DNA from: a bacterium
GTDB taxonomy: Bacteria; Zhuqueibacterota; Zhuqueibacteria; Oceanimicrobiales; Oceanimicrobiaceae
Assembly: GCA_046757025.1 (NCBI GenBank)
Contig: JBHHXN010000099.1
Span: forward strand, 1-18,844
DNA length: 18,844 nt
Direction of reading: 5' to 3'
The notes below the pieces were generated by a model. That model did not search any database, was not told the origin of the DNA, and worked only from the letters and a program-made list of their open reading frames with translations. Each line of letters starts with the position of its first letter. Position 1 is the stretch's first letter. This document shows, piece after piece, positions 6,927 to 18,524 of the stretch. Position numbers and translations under genes: made by a program.

Positions 6927-6971
6927 TTGCAAAAAAATGCAAAGATAATACTATAAAATGTCAATGTACAT
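6927..6971 (+). promoter_or_regulatory. Possible antitoxin promoter with ATGTACAT operator-like palindrome
   Basis: TTGCAA (6927-6932), 16-nt spacer, TACTAT (6949-6954). ATGTACAT lies at 6964-6971. TGTACA is the operator core known for E. coli yefM-yoeB and P1 phd-doc. Confidence 0.4.
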
Positions 6972-6993
6972 GAAATTAAGAATGAGGACTGTT

Positions 6994-7158
6994 ATGATTA
7001 AGGTTTCAGCAACAAAGTTGCGCAAACACCTGTTTGACTATCTGGACAGAGCGGCAGCAGGCGAGACGATTGTTATCCAGCGCAATAACGAGGAAGTTGC
7101 ACGGCTGCCGATAAGGTGGAGTTTGATGCGGCCGTCTGCACTCAGCTTATGGTTCTGA
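6994..7158 (+). pseudogene. Truncated Phd/YefM-family antitoxin (N-terminal DNA-binding domain only)
   Basis: RBS GAGGA (6984-6988) then ATG 6994: MIKVSATKLRKHLFDYLDRAAAGETIVIQRNNEEVARL, a typical Phd/YefM N-terminus. Similarity stops at ~7107, and the rest is an out-of-frame read into transposase DNA. No toxin gene follows. Confidence 0.8.
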
Positions 7159-7706
7159 ATCGCTGCGTTGACCCGATGAGTAAGCTTGCGCTCTCCGAAT
7201 GGCAGAAGACGGTGTATTTCGAAGGCCAGAAGTCATTTGACTATCACCAGATTCTGCGACCGTTAGATTATTTGGAGAAGATCCGGGATGAATTAGAAGG
7301 CGTTCTTTTTGAGAAGCAATTGGATCTTTTTCATCAAAGCGTTGACCTGGTATTTTTTGATGTCACTTCCACCTACTTTGAGGGCGAGGGGCCAGAGATG
7401 GCCGAGAGAGGCCACTCTCGAGACGGCAAGCCTGAGAACAATCAGATCATTCTGGCGTTAGCCATCACCAAAAGCGGCTTAACCATTGGTCATGAGATTT
7501 ACGAAAGGGGCCGCAAAGATTCTCAAACGGTGGTTGAGATGCTTCAGCGGCTCAAATCGCGCTTTCAGATTGACCAATGTATTTTTGTCGGTGATCGCGG
7601 CATGGTCAGTGCGGATAATATCGCTGAGTTAGAACGTATGAACTATGAATATATCTTTGCGCTTCGCAAACGCCGCCTCAGAGAATCCGCTGAGGTGCTT
7701 GAATAA
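7108..7706 (+). pseudogene. Internal fragment of an IS1634-family DDE transposase
   Basis: Motifs MVLNR..DP.SKL, LVFFDVTSTYFEG, GHSRDGKP, Q.ILAL, and IFVGDRGM. Only about 200 aa, against roughly 500-600 aa for the family. The N-terminus and the third catalytic residue region are missing, and I found no terminal inverted repeats. Confidence 0.85.
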
Positions 7707-7762: not shown

Positions 7763-10700
7763 CTATTTCAACAATGTCATTTTCCTGGTTTTTACAAACT
7801 CTCCTGCAATCATCCGAATGAAGTATATCCCAGATCCTACTAGCATACCTTGGCCATTGGTTCCATCCCATTCTATAGTATAATGTCCTCCCTCCTGTTT
7901 TTTGTCTAATAGTGTTCTCACTCTTTGCCCCAAGATATTGTAAATCCCCATTTGAACTTGAGTTAGCTTAGGCAATGTGTACTGGATTGTTGTTGTCGGA
8001 TTGAAGGGATTCGGGTAGTTGTGAGATAGAGAATATGTTTCTGGTAATAGGGACTCGTCTCCATCAGCTATCCCCGTGGCAAACCCTTCTGTGATATTCA
8101 AGGTACTGTCTATTGGCGCACTCGTCAAAACTTCCACGAGGCCGGATGGCCAGCGCACGACAATAGAATCAATTTGGATGGCCTTGCCTAATCCAAACGA
8201 GATCGGCAAACTGCTTTGTGAATGATAAGCCGGATTGTTGCCATCTGCTTCTCTAATCTGCACCAAATCACCCGCCACAACCTTGAGTCGGGTGCCTAAC
8301 CCTTCCTTATTGCTGCGGGTACCCGATAAACGAACCTTTAGCCAGTGGTTGCTGTTTCGGTTATTTCTGTTAAGGAGATTAAGGCCGCGACTATTTGCTA
8401 CAAAGATATCCAGGAAACCGTCGTTGTTGTAATCCCAGAATCCTCCACCAGGGGAGAAGGACGGCTCCTGAACGTTGGCCAATTCGCCAATCTCCGTAAA
8501 TGTCCAGGCCGGAGGTCCATTGTTTCGATAGAGCGCATTTTCCGGATTGGGGTGCTGCCCACTGTTGGCGACGAAAATATCCAGGTAGCCGTCATTATTG
8601 TAGTCTCCAAACATGGAAAGCGTACCATCTCCAGTGTCGCCGACTTCTGCTTGATCAGTTACATCGGTGAAATCCCAGTCCGGGGGACCGTTGTTTTTCA
8701 GCAGGACGTTGGCATGTTTGGATTGAAATCTGCCGCGAATGATGTAAATGTCCAAGTAACCATCGTTGTTGTAGTCGCCGAATACGGCTCCTCGACAGCG
8801 GTTACCAAAGTTGGCTCCGGCCTGAGGAGCGACGTCAGTGAATGTTCCATCGTCGTTGTTGCGATAAAGCAGGTTATTCCCAGTGTAGGTTGTAACATAA
8901 ATGTCGGAGTCTCCGTCGTTGTCGTAATCACCGAAAATACATCCATGGCTCGTGCCGTTATAGCCCACACCCGCACTCTCTGTCATATCGGTGAATTCCC
9001 AGTTTGGTGGACCATTGTTCTTGTACAGCACATTTGGCGAATTCCAATTAGCCAGATACAGGTCGAGGTAACCGTCGTTATCAATGTCGCCGAAGGCAAA
9101 ACCGTTAACGCTTCCCTGATTCACAAAACCTGAGTTATCCGAAACATCCAAAAACGTTCCGTCCCGTTGATTCTCTAACAGTACCTTCAATCCGGAATTT
9201 GCTAAGAACAGATCAGGAAAGCCGTCATTATTGTAATCAATGAAAGCTGGGCCACCTCCGGTGCTGTCATTGCTCACCCCTGCCTGTGTCGTTACATCGG
9301 TGAAGCTGAAGCTCTGAGATCCTGAGTTTTGATATAGGTGATTACTGCCGTTGTTATAAACATAAATATCCAAGTCTTTGTCATTATCATAGTCGGCCAT
9401 GGCAAAACCGTTTGTTTCGCTAAGATCATCCAGACCGGAATTCACTGCGATGTCGGTGAATGTACTGGTTTCTTCCTCAGTGATTTGAATGAATTGGTCG
9501 CTTTGAACGGTTGTTAAGGTATTGACCAGCCCACCTGGCCATCGGACAACCAGACTATCTATTTGCTCAATAGTACCTAACCCAAATGAAACTGCCAAAC
9601 CGTTGTGTGACCCGGTGCCGCCACTCACTTCCCGGACCTGCGTTCCAGATGCAGTTGAAATCATAACACGGGCCCCGACAGCACTTCGGTTGCTTTTGGT
9701 ACCAACAAGCTTGACTGCAAGCCAATGATTATTGTTTCCATTGTTGCTGTAGAAAACATTCCGATTGCTTGACCTGGCAACATAAATGTCGATATCGCCA
9801 TCCTGGTCGTAGTCCGCCAACGCACATTTCGTGTCGTCGCCGGTATTTCCAACATCAGATGCTATGGAGATATTTTCAAAGGTTCCATCGCCATTATTAC
9901 GATAGAGAATGTTTGCTGAGGAAGGATTGGAATTGACGATATATAGGTCTAAATACCGATCATTATCAGCGTCACCCCATTTTGCCGACTTTGCGTTTTC
10001 ACCACTACCCACGAGACCTGCCGATTCAGCAACGTTCGCAAAAAATCCGGCACCGTTATTCTCATAGAGCTGGCTGGCTGAAGAATCGGCAATAAAAATA
10101 TCAAAAAAGCCATCATTGTTATAATCCCCGACTCCAACGCTGACACCGCTAGCGTTGGACAACCCGACCGCTGATGTGGCATCAGAAAAGGCACCATCGC
10201 CGTTGTTTCGTAGATACTTATTTTCCTTACTTTGGGCACTTGTGACCACCAGGTCCAAGTCTCCGTCATTATCAAAATCCGCAAACGCACTTTCACGGCC
10301 GTCAACGATGATATTTAGACCCACTGAATCCGAAACTTCAGTAAAGGTGCCGTCGCCATCGTTTTCAAAAAACAGACATGAGTTGGGACTGACTTGACTG
10401 ACAAACAGGTCCAAGTCGCCATCATTATCGGTATCTGCAAAGGAAGCACCAAAACATTCCTCGATTTCCCCTAGCCCTGCTGAGCCAGACACATCAGAAA
10501 ACGTTCCATCACGGTTATTTCGATATAGCTGCCGCGCAAATAGATCGGTATATCCATCACTATCATAATCGCCCCAGATGGCTACGCGGGAGCTTGCTGT
10601 TATGCCGGCAGTGGTTGAAAGATCGGAAAAAGTGCCGTCCTGATTATTCTGATAGAGCTTGTTGGTACCTGATGGTACTGCAACAAAGAGGTCGGGATAA

Positions 10701-13700
10701 TCATCATTGTTGAAGTCACCGAAAGCAACAGAAACCCCGTCCTGTGAATCGTCCGTGCCTGATAGGGTTCCGTTGTCTGAAAACGTGGGTGCTGTCCCCG
10801 AGATGACGAATAGCTCTTGACTGTTGTAGCTTTCAATCGTGTCTCTCACCGAACGGACAACATAATAACCTTGCAGATAATTTCCAACGTAGTATTGGTT
10901 CAAAGACAATGGCGCGCTATTCAACTTTTTGTACGGCCCCCCAGTGCTGCCTGCTCGATAGACATTATACTGGCCAAGATAATTGTGGTGCCATCTCAGG
11001 TATTGCGCGCTATTAGACGCTTTCATTTCTTCAGTACGGATTGTTCCTGACGTTTTACTGGCCATTGCAAGAATACTCGAGCCTTGTGTCTGACCTGTCT
11101 GGAAAATCGGAGCTGGCAAATTCGCTCCGCCCCAGATACCCATGTCATTTCTGAGACCACCTTTTGCTGGAGACAAAGCGAAGCCTGGGTTGTTTGGGTC
11201 TTCCAGATCATTAAACTCAGTGGCAGGATCCCCTGCATCGATACAAACAGAACCAGAGTTCAGTTCGAAGTCATGCACAGAAACGGTTGGTGCGGCTGCT
11301 GGATTCTTGAAATCTGGAAAGCCGTTATCCAGATTTCCTCCTGTATTAATACACCGCTCGCAGAGCGGAAAGCCGAGAAGGTTATTATATCCTACTTCCA
11401 CCCGGGCAGTTGAGCTGGCCTCACTATGAACGGGCGTTCTGTAAGTACCGCTGCTCAAGATATTGTTCTTAACCAACACCAGAGTGCTTTCCCACTGTGG
11501 GAGAAAAGTATCCTCAAATATTGGATAACCAGTTGCAGAGGTCCATCGCGGTAAAATCACATTATTGACAATTTGCGCCCTGCTGTTGCTGGAGCGAATC
11601 CCATGCTTGCCGTAGTCCAATATCAAATTGTTGTTGATTTCTACATTACTGCGGACAATGCTAATTCCTGTTTCGATATCATAAATTACGTTCCCACTAA
11701 CGGTTGGAAAAGACCTTTCAATATAGATACCGGTGGTCCCTTCACTCCCTTTATGAATGACGTTGTTGACCAGGTTGGTATTTCGTCCAAATATCACGTG
11801 GATGCCAGTTAATGCAAAATCTGAGATTTCACAACTGTCTACCTGAATCGGTTGAGGTTTATTCGCAAATCCGTTATACTCGATGCTTCTACCGGCATAT
11901 TCTATCTTGCAGTGTCTCAAGATGCTGCCGCTACTTGAAGGATTGATGATAATACCAGTCCAATCGCTGGCGGTTGGCGAAGTACTGCTAGAGGTAAAAA
12001 CGATAGGAGCGTCTTTGGTGCCAACAGCTTTCAGGGTACCGTTTACTCTAATTTTTATTTTATTTAGCGGGTGACCTGTTTTAGGCTCAGCTTTAATGGT
12101 GGTGCCAGGTTCAATGACAAGTATCTCAGATTTATCGACAACATAGTCCGTGGTCAGGTTGATCGTTCCAGACCATCTCCTTACTTTCGGAACAGCGAGA
12201 CCGTGGTTGTTGGTGTTCCATGAGTCGTGTTGAGACTGTCCCCAAGCTGTTTTGTCTCTATCATACGGCGTATCGAGATCCCAGACAAAGATGCCCCCTG
12301 ACGTGGTCCCTGAAGCAATTTCAATATCACCATCACCATCGAGGTCCAGCAAAACAGGGGTAGTCAAAGACATGTTGACAGCTCTCTTCGGAAATCCGTT
12401 GACCACGCTGCCGTCATGATTCCAGGCAGATATCCGCTCCTGGCGATCCGCGGCCACGACCTCACTGACTCCATCTCCATCCACATCGCCGATCAGCGGT
12501 GTTCCTCTGATCGAGAATTGCATGGGCCAACCAGAAAGCAGGCTGCCATCATGGTGCCAGAGGTACATGCGATCATACTCATTGACAGCAATTTCCACAT
12601 CACCGTCCCCATCCACGTCGCCCACTGCCGGAATGCTGCCCCACATATCTTTCTGAGTTGATTGCGGCCAGCCTGCGCCAAATGGTTGGGCATTGTGATG
12701 AAAGATATAAAAAGTCTTCTCTGCGCCAACGGCGATTTCCAGGTTGCCGAAATTATCGAAGTCAGCCAGAGTCGGGGCTGCGCTGAGCTGGCTATTGAAC
12801 GTTAGCGGCCAACCAGAAAAGTCGGCTCCATCCCCATCTAAAACCTTGAGAAGAGATGAATTCTGCCAGACACTGGCGATAACTTCAACATCACCATCAT
12901 TATCCAGATCGCCGAGCGCGATACCGTCCCACAGCGTTGTTGACGGGAACTTGGATTGAATCGGCCACCCGTTAACTGCGTCGCCAGTGTGGTGAAATGC
13001 CTCAATGCTACTCCACGTACTCACTACGATTTCCAGATCGCCATCATTGTCTAAATCACCGACGGTAGGAGTTCCTGGGATATCGGGCACAAACTGCGGC
13101 CAGTTTCCTGAAAATGGTTGGCCATCACCTTTGAAGACATAGAGTCGGTATCTTTGTGATCGATCATCTTCTGTTCCACTCACAATGATTTCCAAATCAC
13201 CATTGAAATCAAGATCTGCCAGAGCAACAGGTCTCAGAACATAATCGCCGGGTAGAATTATCGGCCAACCATTGACCACTGAGCCATCGTGGTGCCGTGC
13301 ATGGATGGCTCCGTTTACACCCACAAAGCCATCACTGACAATTTCGATATCTCCGTCTCCGTCGATATCGCCGAACTTTAGGGATTCATTTATTCCGCCT
13401 TGTTGAAATACTGGCCAGCCAGCCTGCATTTGCCGCTCTAGATAGACATGTACAATGTCCATAGCAACGCCGTTAGCGTCGAAGACAGAGAGCCTTATTT
13501 GGTACAACCCTGATTCTAGTTGCGTGTTGTCCCAATTAACCAGTGTGCCCTGATTGACCGATGTTCCTGAACCAATTTCTATCCAGTTCAACGGCATGGA
13601 GGTTCCGCCAGCATATTCGACTTTGTAAGACTCGCCAACAGCGGTGCCTGTGATGTCGATCGGTCCAAACAAAGCAGTGTTTACCTGGGGGAACTGAATC

Positions 13701-15181
13701 TGCGCTACCGCTGTGCTTGACAACTGGAGCTGCAAAGCCGCCAGCACATTGATCCGGCCGCTGCCAATAGGAAAATCCGACCTTATTGGCTCTGCGGAAT
13801 ATTTTATGACATCATAAATGTCGTCAACCGAATAGTCAGGGTAAAGTGAAACGATAAGCGCCGCCAGGCCGCTAACTAATGGTGCCGATGAACTTGTACC
13901 GGAAGCAAAGGCATAGCTGCTATTCAAGTCGGTAGAGTAGATGTTTGTTCCTGGGGCGGCAACATCCACCCAATCTCCATAGTTCGAAAAGCCAGCTCTG
14001 TTGTCCGCTTCATCGGTAGCTGCCACGGACAGAACCTTGGCCAGTGCGGCCGGATAGACTGCAAAGGCGCTGTTTTCATTACCTGCGGCTCCGACCAGGA
14101 CAACTCCCAAAGAATAGGCATAATCAACAGCGCTCGCGTAGGTCAGTCCCCCTCCTCCTCGAAAGCTCATGTTCACAACAGAAGCGCCGTTATCGGCCGC
14201 ATACTCGAGAGCGCGGCTTGCAGCGCTCGTAACGATCGCTCCTCTAGGGTTCGGGGGTGGCGTCTTGTACCCTACTCTCAGCGACATGATCTTGCAGTTC
14301 CAGGCCAGACCCGCGATTCCGATGCCATTATCTGTTGCAGCAGCGGCAATCCCGGAGACAAATGTTCCATGCCCGTGGAGGCTTCTGGGATCGTTGTCCT
14401 CTGGTCCCGGATCTTCACCTGGAAATACCGAACCTGCCGGAATGTTCAGGAAGTCCCATCCTCTAATATCATCGACATAGCCATTGCTATCGTCGTCAAC
14501 ACCGTTATCTGGTATTTCATCAATATTGTGCCATATTTTTGAAGCCAGATCAGGATGCATCCAGTCTACGCCCGTATCAATGATGCCAATGGCCACATTG
14601 AAAGCGCCCTTTTCTATGTCCCAACCTTCAGTAGCTCTGATTTTTTCGAGGCCCCACTGCTGTGTAAAATCGGGATCGTTTGGCACGATTTCCTGGACGT
14701 AGAAGATGTAATTCGGCTCAGCATACTCAACAGCGGGGTCTTTCTGGTATTCTCGGACAATAGAAAGGACATCCACATCTGGACTAAATCTGATTTTGTA
14801 AATGTTTGAAAGGTTTGGAACTTTTACCCTTTTGCCTTTAACCGTAATCATGCCATAGACATCTGGCTTCACAGCAGTCTTGAATACTTTTTCCATTTCG
14901 ATAGCGTTAAGGCGAGCATTTAGTGCATCAATCATCGAATCAGTCGTCTTAATCGTGCCCCCTACTTTTTGCAGGCGGATATTAACATCGTCCTTGAACT
15001 TTACCAATATTTCTCCCGGGACAAACTCCGGATTATCTGGATCATGTCTAACAGGTTCCTCCCCTGTTCTAAAGCCTGGGGATACCGCATGGTTGTTGAA
15101 TACAAAAATGAAGAGCAGTAGAGTCAAAAATGCAGCTAAGGCTTTTCCCGCTCTTTTTCGAAAAAATTTCTTTAGTCTCAT
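7763..15181 (-). CDS. Large secreted S8 (subtilisin-like) serine protease with FG-GAP repeats, right-handed beta-helix, two VCBS/ASPIC-UnbV (CRTAC1-like) modules and a T9SS-type/FlgD-Ig C-terminal domain
   Basis: RBS AGGAGG. Signal or anchor sequence, then a propeptide (VPGEILVKFK...VEYAEPNY). Catalytic triad D202 (IIDTG), H271 (HGHGT), S430 (SGTSSSAP) and oxyanion motif AAGN. DxDxDG-GWP repeats at ~12200-13420 and beta-helix at ~11430-12170. Two GDYDNDG repeat blocks each end in NHWL.V.L.G..SN...G.R...FGLG...IDS.VVRWP.G. The C-terminus reads NYPNPFNPTT...WDG...SGIYF...RKMTLLK. Confidence 0.92.
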   Translation of the reverse strand: MRLKKFFRKRAGKALAAFLTLLLFIFVFNNHAVSPGFRTGEEPVRHDPDNPEFVPGEILVKFKDDVNIRLQKVGGTIKTTDSMIDALNARLNAIEMEKVFKTAVKPDVYGMITVKGKRVKVPNLSNIYKIRFSPDVDVLSIVREYQKDPAVEYAEPNYIFYVQEIVPNDPDFTQQWGLEKIRATEGWDIEKGAFNVAIGIIDTGVDWMHPDLASKIWHNIDEIPDNGVDDDSNGYVDDIRGWDFLNIPAGSVFPGEDPGPEDNDPRSLHGHGTFVSGIAAAATDNGIGIAGLAWNCKIMSLRVGYKTPPPNPRGAIVTSAASRALEYAADNGASVVNMSFRGGGGLTYASAVDYAYSLGVVLVGAAGNENSAFAVYPAALAKVLSVAATDEADNRAGFSNYGDWVDVAAPGTNIYSTDLNSSYAFASGTSSSAPLVSGLAALIVSLYPDYSVDDIYDVIKYSAEPIRSDFPIGSGRINVLAALQLQLSSTAVAQIQFPQVNTALFGPIDITGTAVGESYKVEYAGGTSMPLNWIEIGSGTSVNQGTLVNWDNTQLESGLYQIRLSVFDANGVAMDIVHVYLERQMQAGWPVFQQGGINESLKFGDIDGDGDIEIVSDGFVGVNGAIHARHHDGSVVNGWPIILPGDYVLRPVALADLDFNGDLEIIVSGTEDDRSQRYRLYVFKGDGQPFSGNWPQFVPDIPGTPTVGDLDNDGDLEIVVSTWSSIEAFHHTGDAVNGWPIQSKFPSTTLWDGIALGDLDNDGDVEVIASVWQNSSLLKVLDGDGADFSGWPLTFNSQLSAAPTLADFDNFGNLEIAVGAEKTFYIFHHNAQPFGAGWPQSTQKDMWGSIPAVGDVDGDGDVEIAVNEYDRMYLWHHDGSLLSGWPMQFSIRGTPLIGDVDGDGVSEVVAADRQERISAWNHDGSVVNGFPKRAVNMSLTTPVLLDLDGDGDIEIASGTTSGGIFVWDLDTPYDRDKTAWGQSQHDSWNTNNHGLAVPKVRRWSGTINLTTDYVVDKSEILVIEPGTTIKAEPKTGHPLNKIKIRVNGTLKAVGTKDAPIVFTSSSTSPTASDWTGIIINPSSSGSILRHCKIEYAGRSIEYNGFANKPQPIQVDSCEISDFALTGIHVIFGRNTNLVNNVIHKGSEGTTGIYIERSFPTVSGNVIYDIETGISIVRSNVEINNNLILDYGKHGIRSSNSRAQIVNNVILPRWTSATGYPIFEDTFLPQWESTLVLVKNNILSSGTYRTPVHSEASSTARVEVGYNNLLGFPLCERCINTGGNLDNGFPDFKNPAAAPTVSVHDFELNSGSVCIDAGDPATEFNDLEDPNNPGFALSPAKGGLRNDMGIWGGANLPAPIFQTGQTQGSSILAMASKTSGTIRTEEMKASNSAQYLRWHHNYLGQYNVYRAGSTGGPYKKLNSAPLSLNQYYVGNYLQGYYVVRSVRDTIESYNSQELFVISGTAPTFSDNGTLSGTDDSQDGVSVAFGDFNNDDYPDLFVAVPSGTNKLYQNNQDGTFSDLSTTAGITASSRVAIWGDYDSDGYTDLFARQLYRNNRDGTFSDVSGSAGLGEIEECFGASFADTDNDGDLDLFVSQVSPNSCLFFENDGDGTFTEVSDSVGLNIIVDGRESAFADFDNDGDLDLVVTSAQSKENKYLRNNGDGAFSDATSAVGLSNASGVSVGVGDYNNDGFFDIFIADSSASQLYENNGAGFFANVAESAGLVGSGENAKSAKWGDADNDRYLDLYIVNSNPSSANILYRNNGDGTFENISIASDVGNTGDDTKCALADYDQDGDIDIYVARSSNRNVFYSNNGNNNHWLAVKLVGTKSNRSAVGARVMISTASGTQVREVSGGTGSHNGLAVSFGLGTIEQIDSLVVRWPGGLVNTLTTVQSDQFIQITEEETSTFTDIAVNSGLDDLSETNGFAMADYDNDKDLDIYVYNNGSNHLYQNSGSQSFSFTDVTTQAGVSNDSTGGGPAFIDYNNDGFPDLFLANSGLKVLLENQRDGTFLDVSDNSGFVNQGSVNGFAFGDIDNDGYLDLYLANWNSPNVLYKNNGPPNWEFTDMTESAGVGYNGTSHGCIFGDYDNDGDSDIYVTTYTGNNLLYRNNDDGTFTDVAPQAGANFGNRCRGAVFGDYNNDGYLDIYIIRGRFQSKHANVLLKNNGPPDWDFTDVTDQAEVGDTGDGTLSMFGDYNNDGYLDIFVANSGQHPNPENALYRNNGPPAWTFTEIGELANVQEPSFSPGGGFWDYNNDGFLDIFVANSRGLNLLNRNNRNSNHWLKVRLSGTRSNKEGLGTRLKVVAGDLVQIREADGNNPAYHSQSSLPISFGLGKAIQIDSIVVRWPSGLVEVLTSAPIDSTLNITEGFATGIADGDESLLPETYSLSHNYPNPFNPTTTIQYTLPKLTQVQMGIYNILGQRVRTLLDKKQEGGHYTIEWDGTNGQGMLVGSGIYFIRMIAGEFVKTRKMTLLK

Positions 15182-15259
15182 TTTTTGGTCCTCCTATACC
15201 ACCGCAATAAGGTTCCAGAAATACCGGCCTTTGAACTGTTTGGGCCAAGTAGGCCGATC

Positions 15260-15364
15260 AGATCCGGATGCGCTTCCCGCATCATCGTCAAGATAGGCTC
15301 CAACTATAGCGCGGTTGCCACTGATGCAAACCGAAATTCCGAACCCCTCATCTGATTCCTCCTT
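15260..15364 (-). pseudogene. Relic: single FG-GAP (integrin-alpha-type) repeat behind an orphan RBS and ATG
   Basis: FGISVCISGNRAIVGAYLDDDAGSASGS matches one FG-GAP_2-type repeat. A strong AAGGAGG (15364-15358) with ATG at 15351 is in a different frame and stops after 15 codons. Confidence 0.65.
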
Positions 15365-15401
15365 TTGAGAAAAATTAGGCGTTAGAAGTGGCCTTACCAA
15401 C

Positions 15402-15938
15402 CTACTTCAGCAATGTGAGCTTTCTGGTTTGCACAAACCCCTCTGCCTGGATTCGATAAAAATAAATTCCGCTCGCCAGGCCTTTGGCCTTGAAATCGAC
15501 TTTATATTCTCCTGGCTGGAATTCTTCATCAACCAGGGTTGCTATTTCCCTCCCCAGCACGTCGTAAAGCTTAAGGCTTACTCTTGAGCGCTTTGGCACC
15601 GCAAATTGGATGACCGTTGTGGGATTAAATGGATTTGGATAATTCTGGTCCAGCCGAAACTCTTTCGGGAGTAGCGGCGATGCGATTTGCTCCACGCTGG
15701 TGATGATGTCGATATTCTGGAACCAGATGCCGCTTTGCAAAAGAATTGAGGCACCGCCTATTGTCCCTACAAAGGTCTGACCAACTGTGCCGTAGATCCG
15801 ATTGCTGCTGTTGGACACTACGGTGCCGCCGCTGCCAAAGACGCTGTTTTTGATTTTATTTTGCGCCGCTACTTGTGTGGGAAGGCACACGCCCCACAAA
15901 ACCAGCACAAGCAGAACATTTCTTATCGTGCTTTTCAT
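15402..15938 (-). CDS. Small exported protein with a T9SS type A-like C-terminal sorting domain
   Basis: RBS AAGGAG. Signal peptide ending VAA-Q, a short domain of ~50 aa (SVFGSGG...GTVGQ...LQSGIW), then ITSVE..LPKEFRLDQNYPNPFNP...LASGIYFYRI...TRKLTLLK. Confidence 0.88.
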   Translation of the reverse strand: MKSTIRNVLLVLVLWGVCLPTQVAAQNKIKNSVFGSGGTVVSNSSNRIYGTVGQTFVGTIGGASILLQSGIWFQNIDIITSVEQIASPLLPKEFRLDQNYPNPFNPTTVIQFAVPKRSRVSLKLYDVLGREIATLVDEEFQPGEYKVDFKAKGLASGIYFYRIQAEGFVQTRKLTLLK

Positions 15939-15968
15939 TTTTGTGCTCCTCTTATTGCACCCAATTGT

Positions 15969-18524
15969 TTATCGCATAGCTCCAGTGCTTACATGTTTTT
16001 CAGAGATAACCGACTTCAGCATCTCCCTTAGCTCCTCTATATCTTTTTGTTGTTCCTTTACCGCCTCGATCAGCACGGCAACTAGGCGAGCGTAGTCCAC
16101 AGATTTAGCATCTCTACCATTTTCCTCATACGCCACTACTTCCGGTATCACATCACCTACTTCTTCAGCGATCAGACCGATGTCATGCTTGCCGTCAGCC
16201 TTCCAGTCGTAGGAGACGCCGCGCAGGCGCTTGACTTTGTCGAGGGCGCCATTGAGGGTCTGGATGTTGGTTTTCCAGCGACGGGAGCTGTAGGTGGTCC
16301 ACCCATCAGCTATCGGGTCGGTAGCCGAGTTTTGTTGAATTGTTAGAATGTTACTTGGACCTGAGCCGGTGCCAATCCCAACGTTGCCACCGGCATGAAT
16401 GCGCATCCGTTCGTTACTGCCTTCCACAAAATGAATTGATGCTGGTGAAAACACCGTGCCGTATGCAACGGTCAAGTCATTGGTAGCTTGCACTGATTGA
16501 GCATTCAAGGAACTTAAGCTCAGGTTGCGGGTGGGAAAATTTACGCTGGTTGCAAGCAGACCCCCGTTTGCCGTAACCACTCCGCTCTTTCCAATTGTAA
16601 CCTGGGTTTCTCCGCTGCTCTGGAATTCGGCAATTGCACCGGAGATGCCTGCATGATTTGCCTGAAAGGCGCTTCCTGTACCAGCGTATTCTATTCGGAT
16701 GGCAGCTTGGTCATTTGCTTCATTTGTTGCTCTAAATATGGCGGCTCTACCAGTACCCGCTGTCCAGACATTAAGAGCGTCATTATTGTTATTATCAGGT
16801 AGAATGTGGAATAGCCCGGCTGGGCCGCCAACCCCCTCTACGATAGAATGAATTCCAAATCCTGTTCCCGTGATTTTTGTTAACAATCCAACGCCTTGAC
16901 CATTCGTAACAGCCATTAGAGCAGGACTCTCGTCCAATAGGTTATCAATTTCGAAAAGACCTGCAGGGCCATTACCATATTCATCAATCTGTGCCGATGT
17001 TTTTCCCGTTTGTGTAATGGAAAATACTGGTGTGTCAGGCGCGTTTGCCGATGCGGAAAAAGGCAAGGAAAGTCCGCCATTAGTATAGGCAGTCGTTTGT
17101 AAAGTGCCATCCGGAAACATAATGCCATCTTTGCCGGCTTCCCCGCCGATATGCAGCTTTGCTTCGGGAGTCCTCCCGATTCCAACCTCACCTGAAATAG
17201 TTACAATGCCTGCGCCTATTCGTCCGGCCCCAGTCTTTATGTGAACAGAACCGCCTTCTTCGTCACCGTGACCCGCCTGAATCACGACATCCCCACCGAC
17301 GTCACGGCCTTCACCCCCTTTTAAGTTTAGGATACCGCCGTCTTTGAAGGGACCGAATGAACCGGAGCGTCCGGCCTGAATGGTCAATTCCGTCCCCGTT
17401 CCAAATGTTGCATCTTGAACTCTGATTTTAGGGGAATTTTCGCTCGCAAAAAGTAAGTTCCCTTTGATGCTCAGTTTTTCTTCAGGCTCGGTAGTGCCGA
17501 TACCAACATTACCACGAGCATCTATAAAAACCGTATCCGGATCAGGATCGTTAAATCTGGTTTTTGACACGAGCCCTATGCTTGTACCAAATATCATCAC
17601 TTGACCGTTTCCTTTGCCTGAACCTGCTCGCAGAATCAAGTCTCCTCCCTTGTTTGAGGCATCGCCTGCTTCGAGGTTCAAATTTCCGCCCTCGAGGTCG
17701 CCGAAGCCTGCTTTCAAGGAGAGCTCGCCACCCTTTACATTGGTTCCTACCGTGCTCCCCGCATTTACGCTTAAGTCTTTCCCGCTGCCGCTTGTGACAA
17801 GCCCAACATCGATCTTTCGATCATCGTCGTTTGTAAAAAACATATTTCCATTAAGGTTAAGCCCTTCCTTAAAATTTGATGTTCCAATTCCGAGTTTTTT
17901 GTTTTCATTATCCCAGAGAAGCTCAGTATCACCGGAAACTTCTGAGTCCTCAGTCCAGAAAACTATTTGTCCTGCTTGCCCGGAACCGTTTACACCCCCA
18001 GCGGCACCGCCGGTGGCTGAGATATACAGCGTATCTTTACTTTGGGTAATAGTTACATTGGCACCAGCTGCAAGCGTCATCTCGTCCGTGATCGAGTTGA
18101 TGCTTCTGACGACCTCGCCGCTGGCAATCTTTTCTCCTGTCACAATACTGTCCGCAATGGATTGGGTATTAAAGCTATAGGGTGAACTGGTTAGTTTGAT
18201 CCTTGGTTTAAGTTCGGAATCCTGGCCAACAGAAATTCCCAGCCAGTATTGCCTATCAAAAGGAAGATCTATAGAAGTTACATTTCCCAGGACGGTATTG
18301 AACAATCCATTGGTTGTTGTGAGGGTTTGAATCTCAGACCATAGTGATGTGCCACTGCTTTCAGAATCGTACAATCTGAAAGTAAGTTGGTAATTGCCAT
18401 CGGCCACGACATTTCCGGAAGCATCGGTTAGGACACCCTGGTAGCTTATGGTTTGCGGTATTTGGCCCCAGCTAACAGATGCTGATAGAAGAAATGCTAC
18501 GAATAATGGTATGGAGCGTCTCAT
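15969..18524 (-). CDS. Secreted tail-fibre-like protein with C-terminal intramolecular chaperone (peptidase S74/ICA) domain
   Basis: RBS AAGGAG. Signal peptide ending SWG-Q. N-terminal domain QIPQTISYQGVLTD...WLGISV...ELKPR..LTSSPY. GNVGIGT-type and GG.L.L.AG repeats. Y-S746-SRRW-K751-TNI, then LRGVSYDWK, IGLIAEEV...PEVV and VDY..L..VLIEAVKE, followed by a coiled coil. Confidence 0.88.
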   Translation of the reverse strand: MRRSIPLFVAFLLSASVSWGQIPQTISYQGVLTDASGNVVADGNYQLTFRLYDSESSGTSLWSEIQTLTTTNGLFNTVLGNVTSIDLPFDRQYWLGISVGQDSELKPRIKLTSSPYSFNTQSIADSIVTGEKIASGEVVRSINSITDEMTLAAGANVTITQSKDTLYISATGGAAGGVNGSGQAGQIVFWTEDSEVSGDTELLWDNENKKLGIGTSNFKEGLNLNGNMFFTNDDDRKIDVGLVTSGSGKDLSVNAGSTVGTNVKGGELSLKAGFGDLEGGNLNLEAGDASNKGGDLILRAGSGKGNGQVMIFGTSIGLVSKTRFNDPDPDTVFIDARGNVGIGTTEPEEKLSIKGNLLFASENSPKIRVQDATFGTGTELTIQAGRSGSFGPFKDGGILNLKGGEGRDVGGDVVIQAGHGDEEGGSVHIKTGAGRIGAGIVTISGEVGIGRTPEAKLHIGGEAGKDGIMFPDGTLQTTAYTNGGLSLPFSASANAPDTPVFSITQTGKTSAQIDEYGNGPAGLFEIDNLLDESPALMAVTNGQGVGLLTKITGTGFGIHSIVEGVGGPAGLFHILPDNNNNDALNVWTAGTGRAAIFRATNEANDQAAIRIEYAGTGSAFQANHAGISGAIAEFQSSGETQVTIGKSGVVTANGGLLATSVNFPTRNLSLSSLNAQSVQATNDLTVAYGTVFSPASIHFVEGSNERMRIHAGGNVGIGTGSGPSNILTIQQNSATDPIADGWTTYSSRRWKTNIQTLNGALDKVKRLRGVSYDWKADGKHDIGLIAEEVGDVIPEVVAYEENGRDAKSVDYARLVAVLIEAVKEQQKDIEELREMLKSVISEKHVSTGAMR

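What the first reader, a model, noticed from the sequence alone, without database searches (positions are those of the whole stretch)
15402..18524. Secreted S74-chaperoned fibre paired with a minimal sorting-domain protein: candidate two-partner surface fibre system
Seen: the 851-aa protein has a Sec signal, a distinct N-terminal SYQG.L domain, a Gly-rich repeat shaft and a C-terminal S74 domain, but no barrel, lipobox or sorting domain. Thirty nt downstream lies a protein that is only a signal peptide, ~50 aa and a sorting domain. No phage genes are nearby. Known: S74/ICA domains trimerise phage tailspikes and fibres and then cleave themselves off, so a C-terminal sorting signal on the fibre itself would be lost. 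Inference: the small protein supplies the export or anchor signal in trans, perhaps by binding the fibre's N-terminal domain through its short beta-rich segment. That would make this a domesticated phage-fibre-like adhesin.
Basis: partly seen in the sequence, partly recalled or inferred. Interest (0 to 1): 0.75.

Follow-up and report, generated by a model that had tools for sequence, protein, structure and literature searches.

The report
Swappable-tag adaptor for bacterial surface fibres
A gene for a phage-like fibre protein that has no surface-sorting tag sits next to a small gene whose unnamed 50-residue head is predicted to slot into the fibre's base and is joined to a different surface tag in each bacterial lineage, so it is likely the still-unknown piece that ties such fibres to the cell.

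Summary
Observation confirmed. The 851-aa protein is a relative of Bdellovibrio MAT fibres: its N-domain hits Bdello_MAT_N below cut-off and it ends in S74. The 178-aa neighbour is a signal peptide, a ~50-aa module of no Pfam family, and a T9SS CTD. The genome has SprA, PorU and PorV-family genes.

The pairing is real. In 151 same-phylum genomes, 110 of 125 module hits lie near a fibre N-domain, and 0 of 134 complete fibres carry a CTD. The module's C-terminal tag changes by lineage: T9SS CTD, YLP-box, IPTL-CTERM, dockerin or transmembrane tail. A divergent form ends myxococcal stalk proteins, one with a lipobox.

A 3:3 complex prediction passed: 0.67 against best control 0.00 (mark reached by 116 of 157 solved, 2 of 215 mismatched pairs; partner pLDDT only 39-44, runs agree in at least 53% of contacts). 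One module strand lies in a groove of the fibre's Ig-like N-domain.

Best reading: a strand-donating anchor adaptor (0.68). T9SS piggyback export is unproven, and S74 cleavage is not the reason, since most fibres lack S74. This scan noted the pair before on other genomes (five notes). My searches found no paper on it.

The parts
15969..18524 (-). MAT-type fibre gene, 851 aa (P0001)
18465..18524 (-). Fibre Sec signal peptide, residues 1-20 (by eye)
   Evidence: homologues begin their conserved domain at the same Q
18177..18464 (-). Fibre N-domain, residues 21-116; Ig/FnIII-like beta-sandwich, weak homologue of Bdello_MAT_N; predicted adaptor-binding groove (I26-A35, L95, I97, V99, L105-L111)
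16290..18176 (-). Gly-rich repeat shaft and tip, residues 117-745
   Evidence: sequence; partial PHROG tail-fibre hits
16008..16289 (-). S74 intramolecular chaperone, residues 746-839; motif S746-S-R-R-W-K751
15939..15968 (-). 30-nt intergenic spacer with AAGAGGAG ribosome-binding stretch
15402..15938 (-). Adaptor gene, 178 aa (P0002)
15864..15938 (-). Adaptor Sec signal peptide, residues 1-25 (by eye, ends VAA|Q)
15714..15863 (-). Unnamed ~50-aa module, residues 26-75 (SVxxxGG..GTxGQ..G..GFW); low confidence when folded alone; strand N46-Q54 predicted to pair with the fibre N-domain
15405..15668 (-). Type A T9SS C-terminal sorting domain, residues ~91-178

Best explanation
The 851-aa protein is a likely trimeric, MAT-type adhesive surface fibre with no sorting tag of its own, and the 178-aa neighbour is likely an adaptor whose 50-residue head is predicted to donate a beta-strand into the fibre's N-terminal Ig-like domain while its T9SS tag would carry and fix it at the cell surface. 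Steps. (1) Shown: both genes have signal-like N-termini (by eye), lie 30 nt apart on one strand, and the pairing recurs across phyla. (2) Inferred from S74 and MAT biology: the fibre trimerises from its C-terminus and the S74 domain (S746/K751) cuts itself off, leaving the tip distal. (3) Predicted: module strand N46-Q54 pairs antiparallel with fibre strand I26-A35 and packs on L95, I97, V99, L105, P107, I109 and L111; the head is poorly ordered when folded alone. (4) Inferred from Porphyromonas T9SS: PorU removes the CTD and may link the new C-terminus to a surface glycolipid, leaving a ~60-residue lipid-linked staple. (5) Inferred from domain swaps: other lineages use the same head with their own sorting signal, so the fibre itself stays pathway-independent. 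The ~19-residue periodicity suggests one adaptor per trimer with one strand per subunit, but this is untested. Whether the fibre crosses the outer membrane riding on the adaptor through SprA is open (about even odds).
For: Adjacency starting from the fibre: 40 module ORFs in 38 of 69 loci, all on the fibre's strand. Starting from the module, in 151 same-phylum genomes: 93 of 125 hits have a listed N-domain within 10 kb, all same strand; 17 of the other 32 have one on re-fetch, and 6 more abut a fibre tail cut by a contig end. Phylum of a Chloroflexia genome: module in 10 of 61 genomes, N-domain in 9 of 61, all 9 with both, and copy numbers scale (22/30, 9/10, 6/8). On one complete 5.4-Mb chromosome each of 4 fibre clusters has one module. 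No CTD on 0 of 134 complete fibres and no fusion of module and N-domain. Tag swapping among the 150 best module proteins: 82 with CTD, about 15 with a YLP-box-like tail, others with dockerin, IPTL-CTERM or a transmembrane tail. A divergent C-terminal form (hhalign probability 61%, pairwise E 8e-5) ends large myxococcal stalk proteins, 14 of 30 directly upstream of an N-domain gene, and the one read in full has a lipobox. Complex prediction: score 0.67, best of 3 controls 0.00; the mark was reached by 116 of 157 solved complexes and 2 of 215 mismatched pairs (counts hold only roughly here); runs agree in at least 53% of contacts; partner pLDDT at least 38. Neither domain has a solved relative by sequence. 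SprA, PorU and PorV-family genes are over cut-off in the genome.
Against: No experiment. The partner's own fold in the complex is uncertain (pLDDT 39-44) and only module residues 14-31 have confident contacts. Inter-chain covariation on 106 pairs is at the noise limit: the best pair G25-I89 has z 5.1, equal to the 95th percentile of shuffled pairings. The 19-residue repeat has P 0.0025 at that offset but 0.08 after correcting for offsets, and hhalign found no off-diagonal self-match. Exceptions exist: 15 of 54 informative loci had no module nearby, 6 of 125 modules had no fibre nearby, and 3 of 18 re-fetched unpaired fibres had no module-like neighbour. One myxococcal genome has 38 N-domains and only 4 variant modules. 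GldM was not found in the genome (no control rang, so uninformative), and two secretin loci exist, so another export route is possible. No Bdellovibrio genome could be searched.
Confidence: 0.68

Rival explanations
1. Export pilot only: the module binds the N-domain to drag the tagless fibre through the T9SS (piggyback), after which the complex is released or the fibre is held by something else.
For: Same adjacency and predicted interface. The minimal protein is little more than head plus CTD. T9SS cargo can be released rather than anchored (PMC5445135, passages).
Against: The same head and pairing occur in genomes with no SprA match over cut-off (0 of 5), including Chloroflexia, which are monoderm (recalled). 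There it is fused to YLP-box, dockerin, IPTL-CTERM or transmembrane tails, or (divergent form) to a lipoprotein stalk.
Confidence: 0.15
2. Transient folding chaperone: the module completes the N-domain's sandwich in the periplasm, as chaperone-usher chaperones do, and is later displaced by the real surface receptor.
For: The predicted geometry is strand donation into an Ig-like domain, and the head weakly resembles the N-terminus of the Pam pilus protein PamT.
Against: A periplasmic chaperone would not need surface-sorting tags, long stalks or up to three tandem heads (7 double and 4 triple among 150). The N-domain folds confidently alone in AlphaFold2.
Confidence: 0.07
3. Co-regulated but independent cargo: the small protein is a separate secreted peptide kept beside the fibre by operon linkage and co-transfer.
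For: Fibre genes sit among other CTD genes (3 of 184 non-module CTD genes within 1 kb of a fibre gene). Orphans of both kinds exist. Kin genomes are not independent.
Against: Linkage survives changes of order (75 downstream, 18 upstream of 93), of phylum and of C-terminal tag, and the complex prediction passed against three controls.
Confidence: 0.08
4. Prophage tail-fibre remnant with an unrelated neighbour.
For: The S74 end matches many PHROG tail-fibre families and the chaperone region of a phage long tail fibre structure, PDB 6f45.
Against: Signal peptide present; no phage genes among the window ORFs scanned; the N-domain has no tblastn match in 50,697 phage records.
Confidence: 0.02

Closest known systems
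Mosaic adhesive trimer (MAT) fibres of Bdellovibrio bacteriovorus, S74 subgroup (Caulton et al. 2024, PMC10769870; NCBIfam NF053851)
   Same: Signal peptide, conserved beta-rich N-domain, variable shaft and tip, C-terminal S74 in some members only. 106 of 106 N-domains hit NF053851 at E<=0.1.
   Different: Score 28 bits against a cut-off of 60; S74 motif is SSxxxK rather than SDxxxK; non-Bdellovibrio host. [quoted passage not shown]
Type A T9SS cargo (TIGR04183 / PF18962), processed by PorU (PMC5445135)
   Same: The adaptor has a signal peptide and a CTD over cut-off; SprA, PorU and PorV-family genes are in the genome.
   Different: The cargo part is only ~50 residues, poorly ordered alone, and apparently serves a second, tagless protein.
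PamT, predicted tip protein of the CPR Pam pilus (PMC13278184; NF058579), and donor-strand assembly in Pam and chaperone-usher pili
   Same: 37 of 106 modules hit NF058579 weakly, always at profile positions ~3-89 of 241 in the 9 proteins inspected. The predicted binding mode is strand donation into an Ig-like domain.
   Different: Scores 14-34 bits against a cut-off of 240; the window's own module has no hit. No pilin, chaperone or usher genes here, and no polymer: one adaptor layer holding a trimer.
TANFOR-domain polymorphic toxins of Bacteroidetes (Jana et al. 2020, PMC7073777)
   Same: Large Sec-signal proteins encoded beside CTD-bearing genes and hypothesised to use the T9SS; 6 of 106 N-domains hit TIGR02542 weakly (best E 0.004).
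   Different: TANFOR proteins end in toxin domains; in the passages read no small adaptor or binding mode is proposed; the homology here is marginal.
Phage tailspikes and tail fibres with the S74 intramolecular chaperone (PF13884)
   Same: C-terminal S74 with Ser and Lys kept.
   Different: Signal peptide and a cellular N-domain with no match in the phage collection searched.

Membership tests
MAT fibres | Conserved beta-rich ~130-aa domain directly after the signal peptide | tested here: inconclusive
   Homologous (E 1.8e-6; 106 of 106 relatives hit, best 4.5e-14) but 28 bits against the NF053851 cut-off of 60. All-beta fold in the model.
MAT fibres | C-terminal S74 domain (S74 subgroup) | tested here: met
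   PF13884 57.6 bits, cut-off 22.
MAT fibres | SDxxxK catalytic motif | tested here: inconclusive
   Reads SSRRWK: Ser and Lys kept, Asp replaced by Ser. 21 of 34 S74 fibres in my set have SS, 13 have SD. Cleavage not tested.
MAT fibres | Mosaic: same N-domain, different tips | tested here: met
   Five N-domain fibres with different C-termini in the own genome; 34 of 134 with S74.
MAT fibres | Homotrimer | tested here: inconclusive
   Three N-domain copies were folded (pLDDT 83-85) but only the partner was scored; the full fibre was not folded.
MAT fibres | Surface exposure and ligand binding | not testable with these tools
   Needs cells.
Type A T9SS cargo (adaptor) | Signal peptide plus C-terminal type A CTD | tested here: met
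   TIGR04183 41.8 bits (cut-off 23), PF18962 40.8 bits (cut-off 27); signal peptide by eye.
Type A T9SS cargo (adaptor) | SprA translocon, PorU and PorV in the genome | tested here: met
   (PorV family: 17 matches over cut-off; the true PorV orthologue was not singled out).
Type A T9SS cargo (adaptor) | GldM/PorM motor | tested here: inconclusive
   No match in a 94.8% complete genome, and no control genome rang.
Type A T9SS cargo (adaptor) | CTD cleavage and glycolipid attachment | not testable with these tools
   Needs mass spectrometry.
PamT (NF058579) | Whole-protein score over 240 bits, with the truncated Ig domain | tested here: not met
   Only the N-terminal third of the profile matches, at most 34 bits; no hit for the window protein.
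Two-partner secretion (type Vb) | Partner is an outer-membrane beta-barrel transporter | tested here: not met
   Partner is 178 aa with a CTD sandwich only.
Prophage tail fibre | Phage gene context and phage-type N-terminus without signal peptide | tested here: not met

The most novel reading that the evidence does not exclude
A widespread, unnamed plug-and-socket display system: a three-repeat, 50-residue plug donates one beta-strand to each subunit of a MAT fibre trimer and can be fused to any surface address (T9SS CTD, YLP-box, IPTL-CTERM, dockerin, transmembrane tail, lipoprotein stalk, perhaps the PamT tip of CPR pili). In T9SS bacteria it would also carry a tagless trimeric fibre through SprA as a passenger, and a divergent lipid-anchored form would be the missing MAT anchor of Bdellovibrio.
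Probability: 0.35. Interest if true: 0.85.

Novelty: new variant of a known kind. Interest (0 to 1): 0.66.

Why it matters
Caulton et al. left open what the conserved MAT N-domain binds on the cell surface. This gives a named, testable candidate with a predicted residue-level interface. The module family is large (10,077 clusters at 50% identity with E<=0.001) and has no Pfam family. If the reading holds, it explains how one fibre family is displayed by bacteria with very different envelopes, it would be a case of passenger export or anchoring by the T9SS, and it offers a short peptide socket for surface display.

Tried and rejected
Fold searches of the N-domain model: Foldseek gave no match at E<=0.001; the wide search gave only generic Ig/FnIII sandwiches, best Z 6.9, rmsd 2.6 A, 84 aligned, so no specific family is named. 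Inter-chain covariation was not above shuffled pairings. hhalign self-comparison found no internal repeat; the profile periodicity test was only suggestive. A word-based search with one module of P0003, meant to reach CPR PamT proteins, returned only the query, so the PamT-fibre link is untested; the Atlas structure rows listing Minisyncoccota, Verrucomicrobiota and Pseudomonadota clusters are leads only. The Atlas was not reached for the N-domain. A viral-contig scan with the N-domain alignment could not be run; the phage question rests. Promoter and terminator scans gave no more sites than shuffles. No Bdellovibrio genome was reachable. The S74-cleavage rationale was rejected. Literature searches that found no paper on the pair: (open-licence PMC and bioRxiv only). 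In the MAT paper's supplements, two files were searched with no hit for T9SS, Bacteroid, lipoprotein or KSB1; one file of scanned pages was unreadable. Supplements of the Pam preprint were not seen and may bear on the PamT link.
Full report
Observation. The window's last two long ORFs are as described: 15969-18524(-), 851 aa, and 15402-15938(-), 178 aa, 30 nt apart, each with a ribosome-binding stretch. The fibre has a Pfam S74 domain at 746-797 and no sorting domain; the small protein has a type A T9SS CTD at 100-174. Signal peptides were judged by eye. The other ORFs scanned are peptidases and fragments, not phage genes. The genome (5.96 Mb, 94.8% complete) is likely from phylum KSB1 (inferred from the titles of related loci). 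It encodes SprA, PorU and many PorV-family barrels over cut-off; GldM was not found, which is uninformative because no control rang.

The fibre is MAT-like. Its N-domain hits NCBIfam Bdello_MAT_N at 28 bits (cut-off 60), and 106 of 106 relatives hit it at E<=0.1. Caulton et al. (PMC10769870; passages and the whole Discussion read) define MATs as signal peptide, conserved ~130-aa beta domain, trimeric shaft and variable tip, with or without S74, and state that the surface element bound by the N-domain awaits identification. A 2026 review (PMC13689555, passages) adds no anchor in the passages found. AlphaFold2 folds the N-domain as a beta-sandwich with block pLDDT 85-98 over residues 1-90; it resembles generic Ig/FnIII domains only (best Z 6.9). 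It has no tblastn match in 50,697 phage records, whereas the S74 end is phage-like.

The pairing is conserved. From the fibre side: 69 loci, 40 module ORFs in 38 of them, all on the fibre's strand, 35 of 40 within 400 nt. Of the 31 loci without a hit, 15 were cut by a contig end, 1 had a degenerate partner by eye and 15 had none. From the module side, in 151 genomes of the same phylum: 125 hits in 75 genomes; 93 had a listed N-domain within 10 kb, all on the same strand (only 150 of 238 N-domain hits were listed). Re-fetching the other 32 gave 17 with an N-domain, 6 beside a truncated fibre tail, 3 at contig edges and 6 orphans. In the own genome 5 of 5 module genes but 5 of 184 other CTD genes lie within 10 kb of a fibre gene (partly circular). 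The profile was trained on fibre-adjacent partners, eight loci overlapped the training set, and kin genomes are not independent, so these are counts, not tests. Of 18 hand-picked fibres with no listed module, 8 had one by profile at E<=0.5, 5 had a degenerate one by eye, 2 were at contig ends and 3 had none.

The tag changes, the head stays. The module defines 10,077 clusters at E<=0.001 and has no Pfam family. Among the best 150, it starts within the first 90 residues in 149; 82 end in a T9SS CTD, 16 matched my pattern for an LP tail (2 of these are false by eye, several true ones were missed), and others carry dockerin, IPTL-CTERM or transmembrane tails; 7 have two copies and 4 have three; none is fused to an N-domain ([48 of 150 scanned], 67, 91). 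In the phylum of a Chloroflexia genome the module occurs in 10 of 61 genomes and the N-domain in 9 of 61, all 9 with both; 35 of 48 modules lie within 10 kb of an N-domain. None of five such non-FCB genomes has SprA over cut-off. A Myxococcales genome with 38 N-domains had no module at E<=0.001, but a weak hit led to Cys-rich stalk proteins that end in a divergent module directly upstream of fibre clusters; the one read in full has a lipobox. This form occurs in 10 of 151 genomes of that phylum; 14 of 30 loci examined (3 of them training sequences) have an N-domain gene within 1.5 kb downstream. Profile comparison with the main module gives probability 61%, pairwise E 8e-5: suggestive, not proven. 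In a Bacteroidota sample the N-domain was in 9 of 41 genomes and the module in 5 of 41, one with a stop, with degenerate small CTD partners beside most of the rest. Across all loci, 0 of 134 complete fibres have a CTD and only 34 have S74, so S74 cleavage is not the reason for the missing tag.

Predicted binding. Three N-domains with three modules, each as a 106-row alignment, scored 0.67 (runs 0.64-0.69) against 0.00 for the best of three controls. The mark was reached by 116 of 157 solved complexes and 2 of 215 mismatched pairs; these counts hold only roughly for this job. The runs agree in at least 53% of contacts and the partner's pLDDT is at least 38, so its own fold is uncertain. The confident contacts are one module strand (N46-Q54 of the adaptor) antiparallel to the fibre's ISYQGVLTD strand in constant register (T33-R47, V31-Y49, Y28-V52), touching L95, I97, V99 and L105-L111. 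Neither domain has a solved relative by sequence. Folded alone, the head has block pLDDT 40-60 while the CTD has 98. The module shows Y-x-[ILV] at positions 2, 21 and 40; the 19-residue offset has P 0.0025, or 0.08 after correction, and hhalign did not detect a repeat. One adaptor per trimer is therefore a hypothesis. Covariation between the chains was at noise level.

Mechanism. Most likely (0.68) the head is a strand-donating plug for the fibre's base and the C-terminal tag fixes the plug to the surface. In T9SS bacteria PorU removes the CTD and can attach a glycolipid (shown for Porphyromonas, PMC5445135, passages; inferred here). Whether the fibre itself passes through SprA as a passenger is open; two secretin loci offer another route. 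Rivals: export pilot only (0.15), independent co-regulated cargo (0.08), transient chaperone (0.07), prophage relic (0.02).

Relation to known systems. It works like a MAT fibre, with membership inconclusive by score. The adaptor is a T9SS cargo by sequence. It is not a two-partner (type Vb) system and not PamT, although 37 of 106 modules weakly match the N-terminal third of the PamT profile. PamT is the predicted tip of the CPR Pam pilus (PMC13278184, parts 1-2 of 7 and passages; no mention of tail fibres or S74 in the main text). TANFOR toxins (PMC7073777, part 1 of 6 and passages) are a conceptual neighbour only. A review on folded-protein transport (PMC9251779, passages) gave no T9SS piggyback case. 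Seven searches (listings seen) found no paper on this pair in the open-licence library.

Earlier notes of this scan. Five unchecked notes describe the same pair on other genomes. They gave me the PamT lead and the lipid-anchored look-alike lead; I tested both in part. They are not counted as support.

Verdict. Real, widespread and apparently undescribed in print: a new variant of a known kind that makes an explicit open question testable. Interest 0.66.

Noticed in passing
G000:C58:12585-13073(-): A 162-aa protein made of a signal peptide, the fibre-type N-domain and a CcmD-like transmembrane tail (label recalled), at the end of what looks like a cytochrome c maturation (ccmABC-like) operon. 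Many same-phylum genomes have one weak N-domain hit and no module, possibly this gene.
   Followed up: no
window 15194-15400(-): 68-aa ORF with a single FG-GAP_2 repeat between the adaptor and the protease gene, with its own ribosome-binding stretch; looks like a relic of a deleted gene.
   Followed up: no
window 7763-15181(-): 2472-aa T9SS cargo: S8 subtilase, about 20 FG-GAP repeats, two ASPIC/UnbV domains and a CTD, 220 nt downstream of the adaptor on the same strand.
   Followed up: no
window 6958-7706(+): Phd/YefM antitoxin fragment running into a DDE transposase fragment.
   Followed up: no
G152 (L183, L186, L187-L216): A Myxococcales genome with 38 MAT-type N-domain genes, more than the 21 MATs reported for Bdellovibrio HD100, and Cys-rich stalk proteins ending in a divergent module.
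   Followed up: partly
G000:C83:1-1219(-) and C147:1-889(-): Module fused to larger cargo with cohesin- and dockerin-like regions (by eye; Pfam confirms cohesin and dockerin in similar proteins P0025, P0030), suggesting fibre-bearing scaffolds.
   Followed up: partly
G000 whole genome: 17 PorV-family genes over cut-off and about 185 CTD-bearing ORFs, with no GldM match.
   Followed up: no
NF058579 profile positions 3-89: The N-terminus of the PamT profile resembles the module, hinting that CPR Pam pili could carry MAT-type fibres at their tip.
   Followed up: partly
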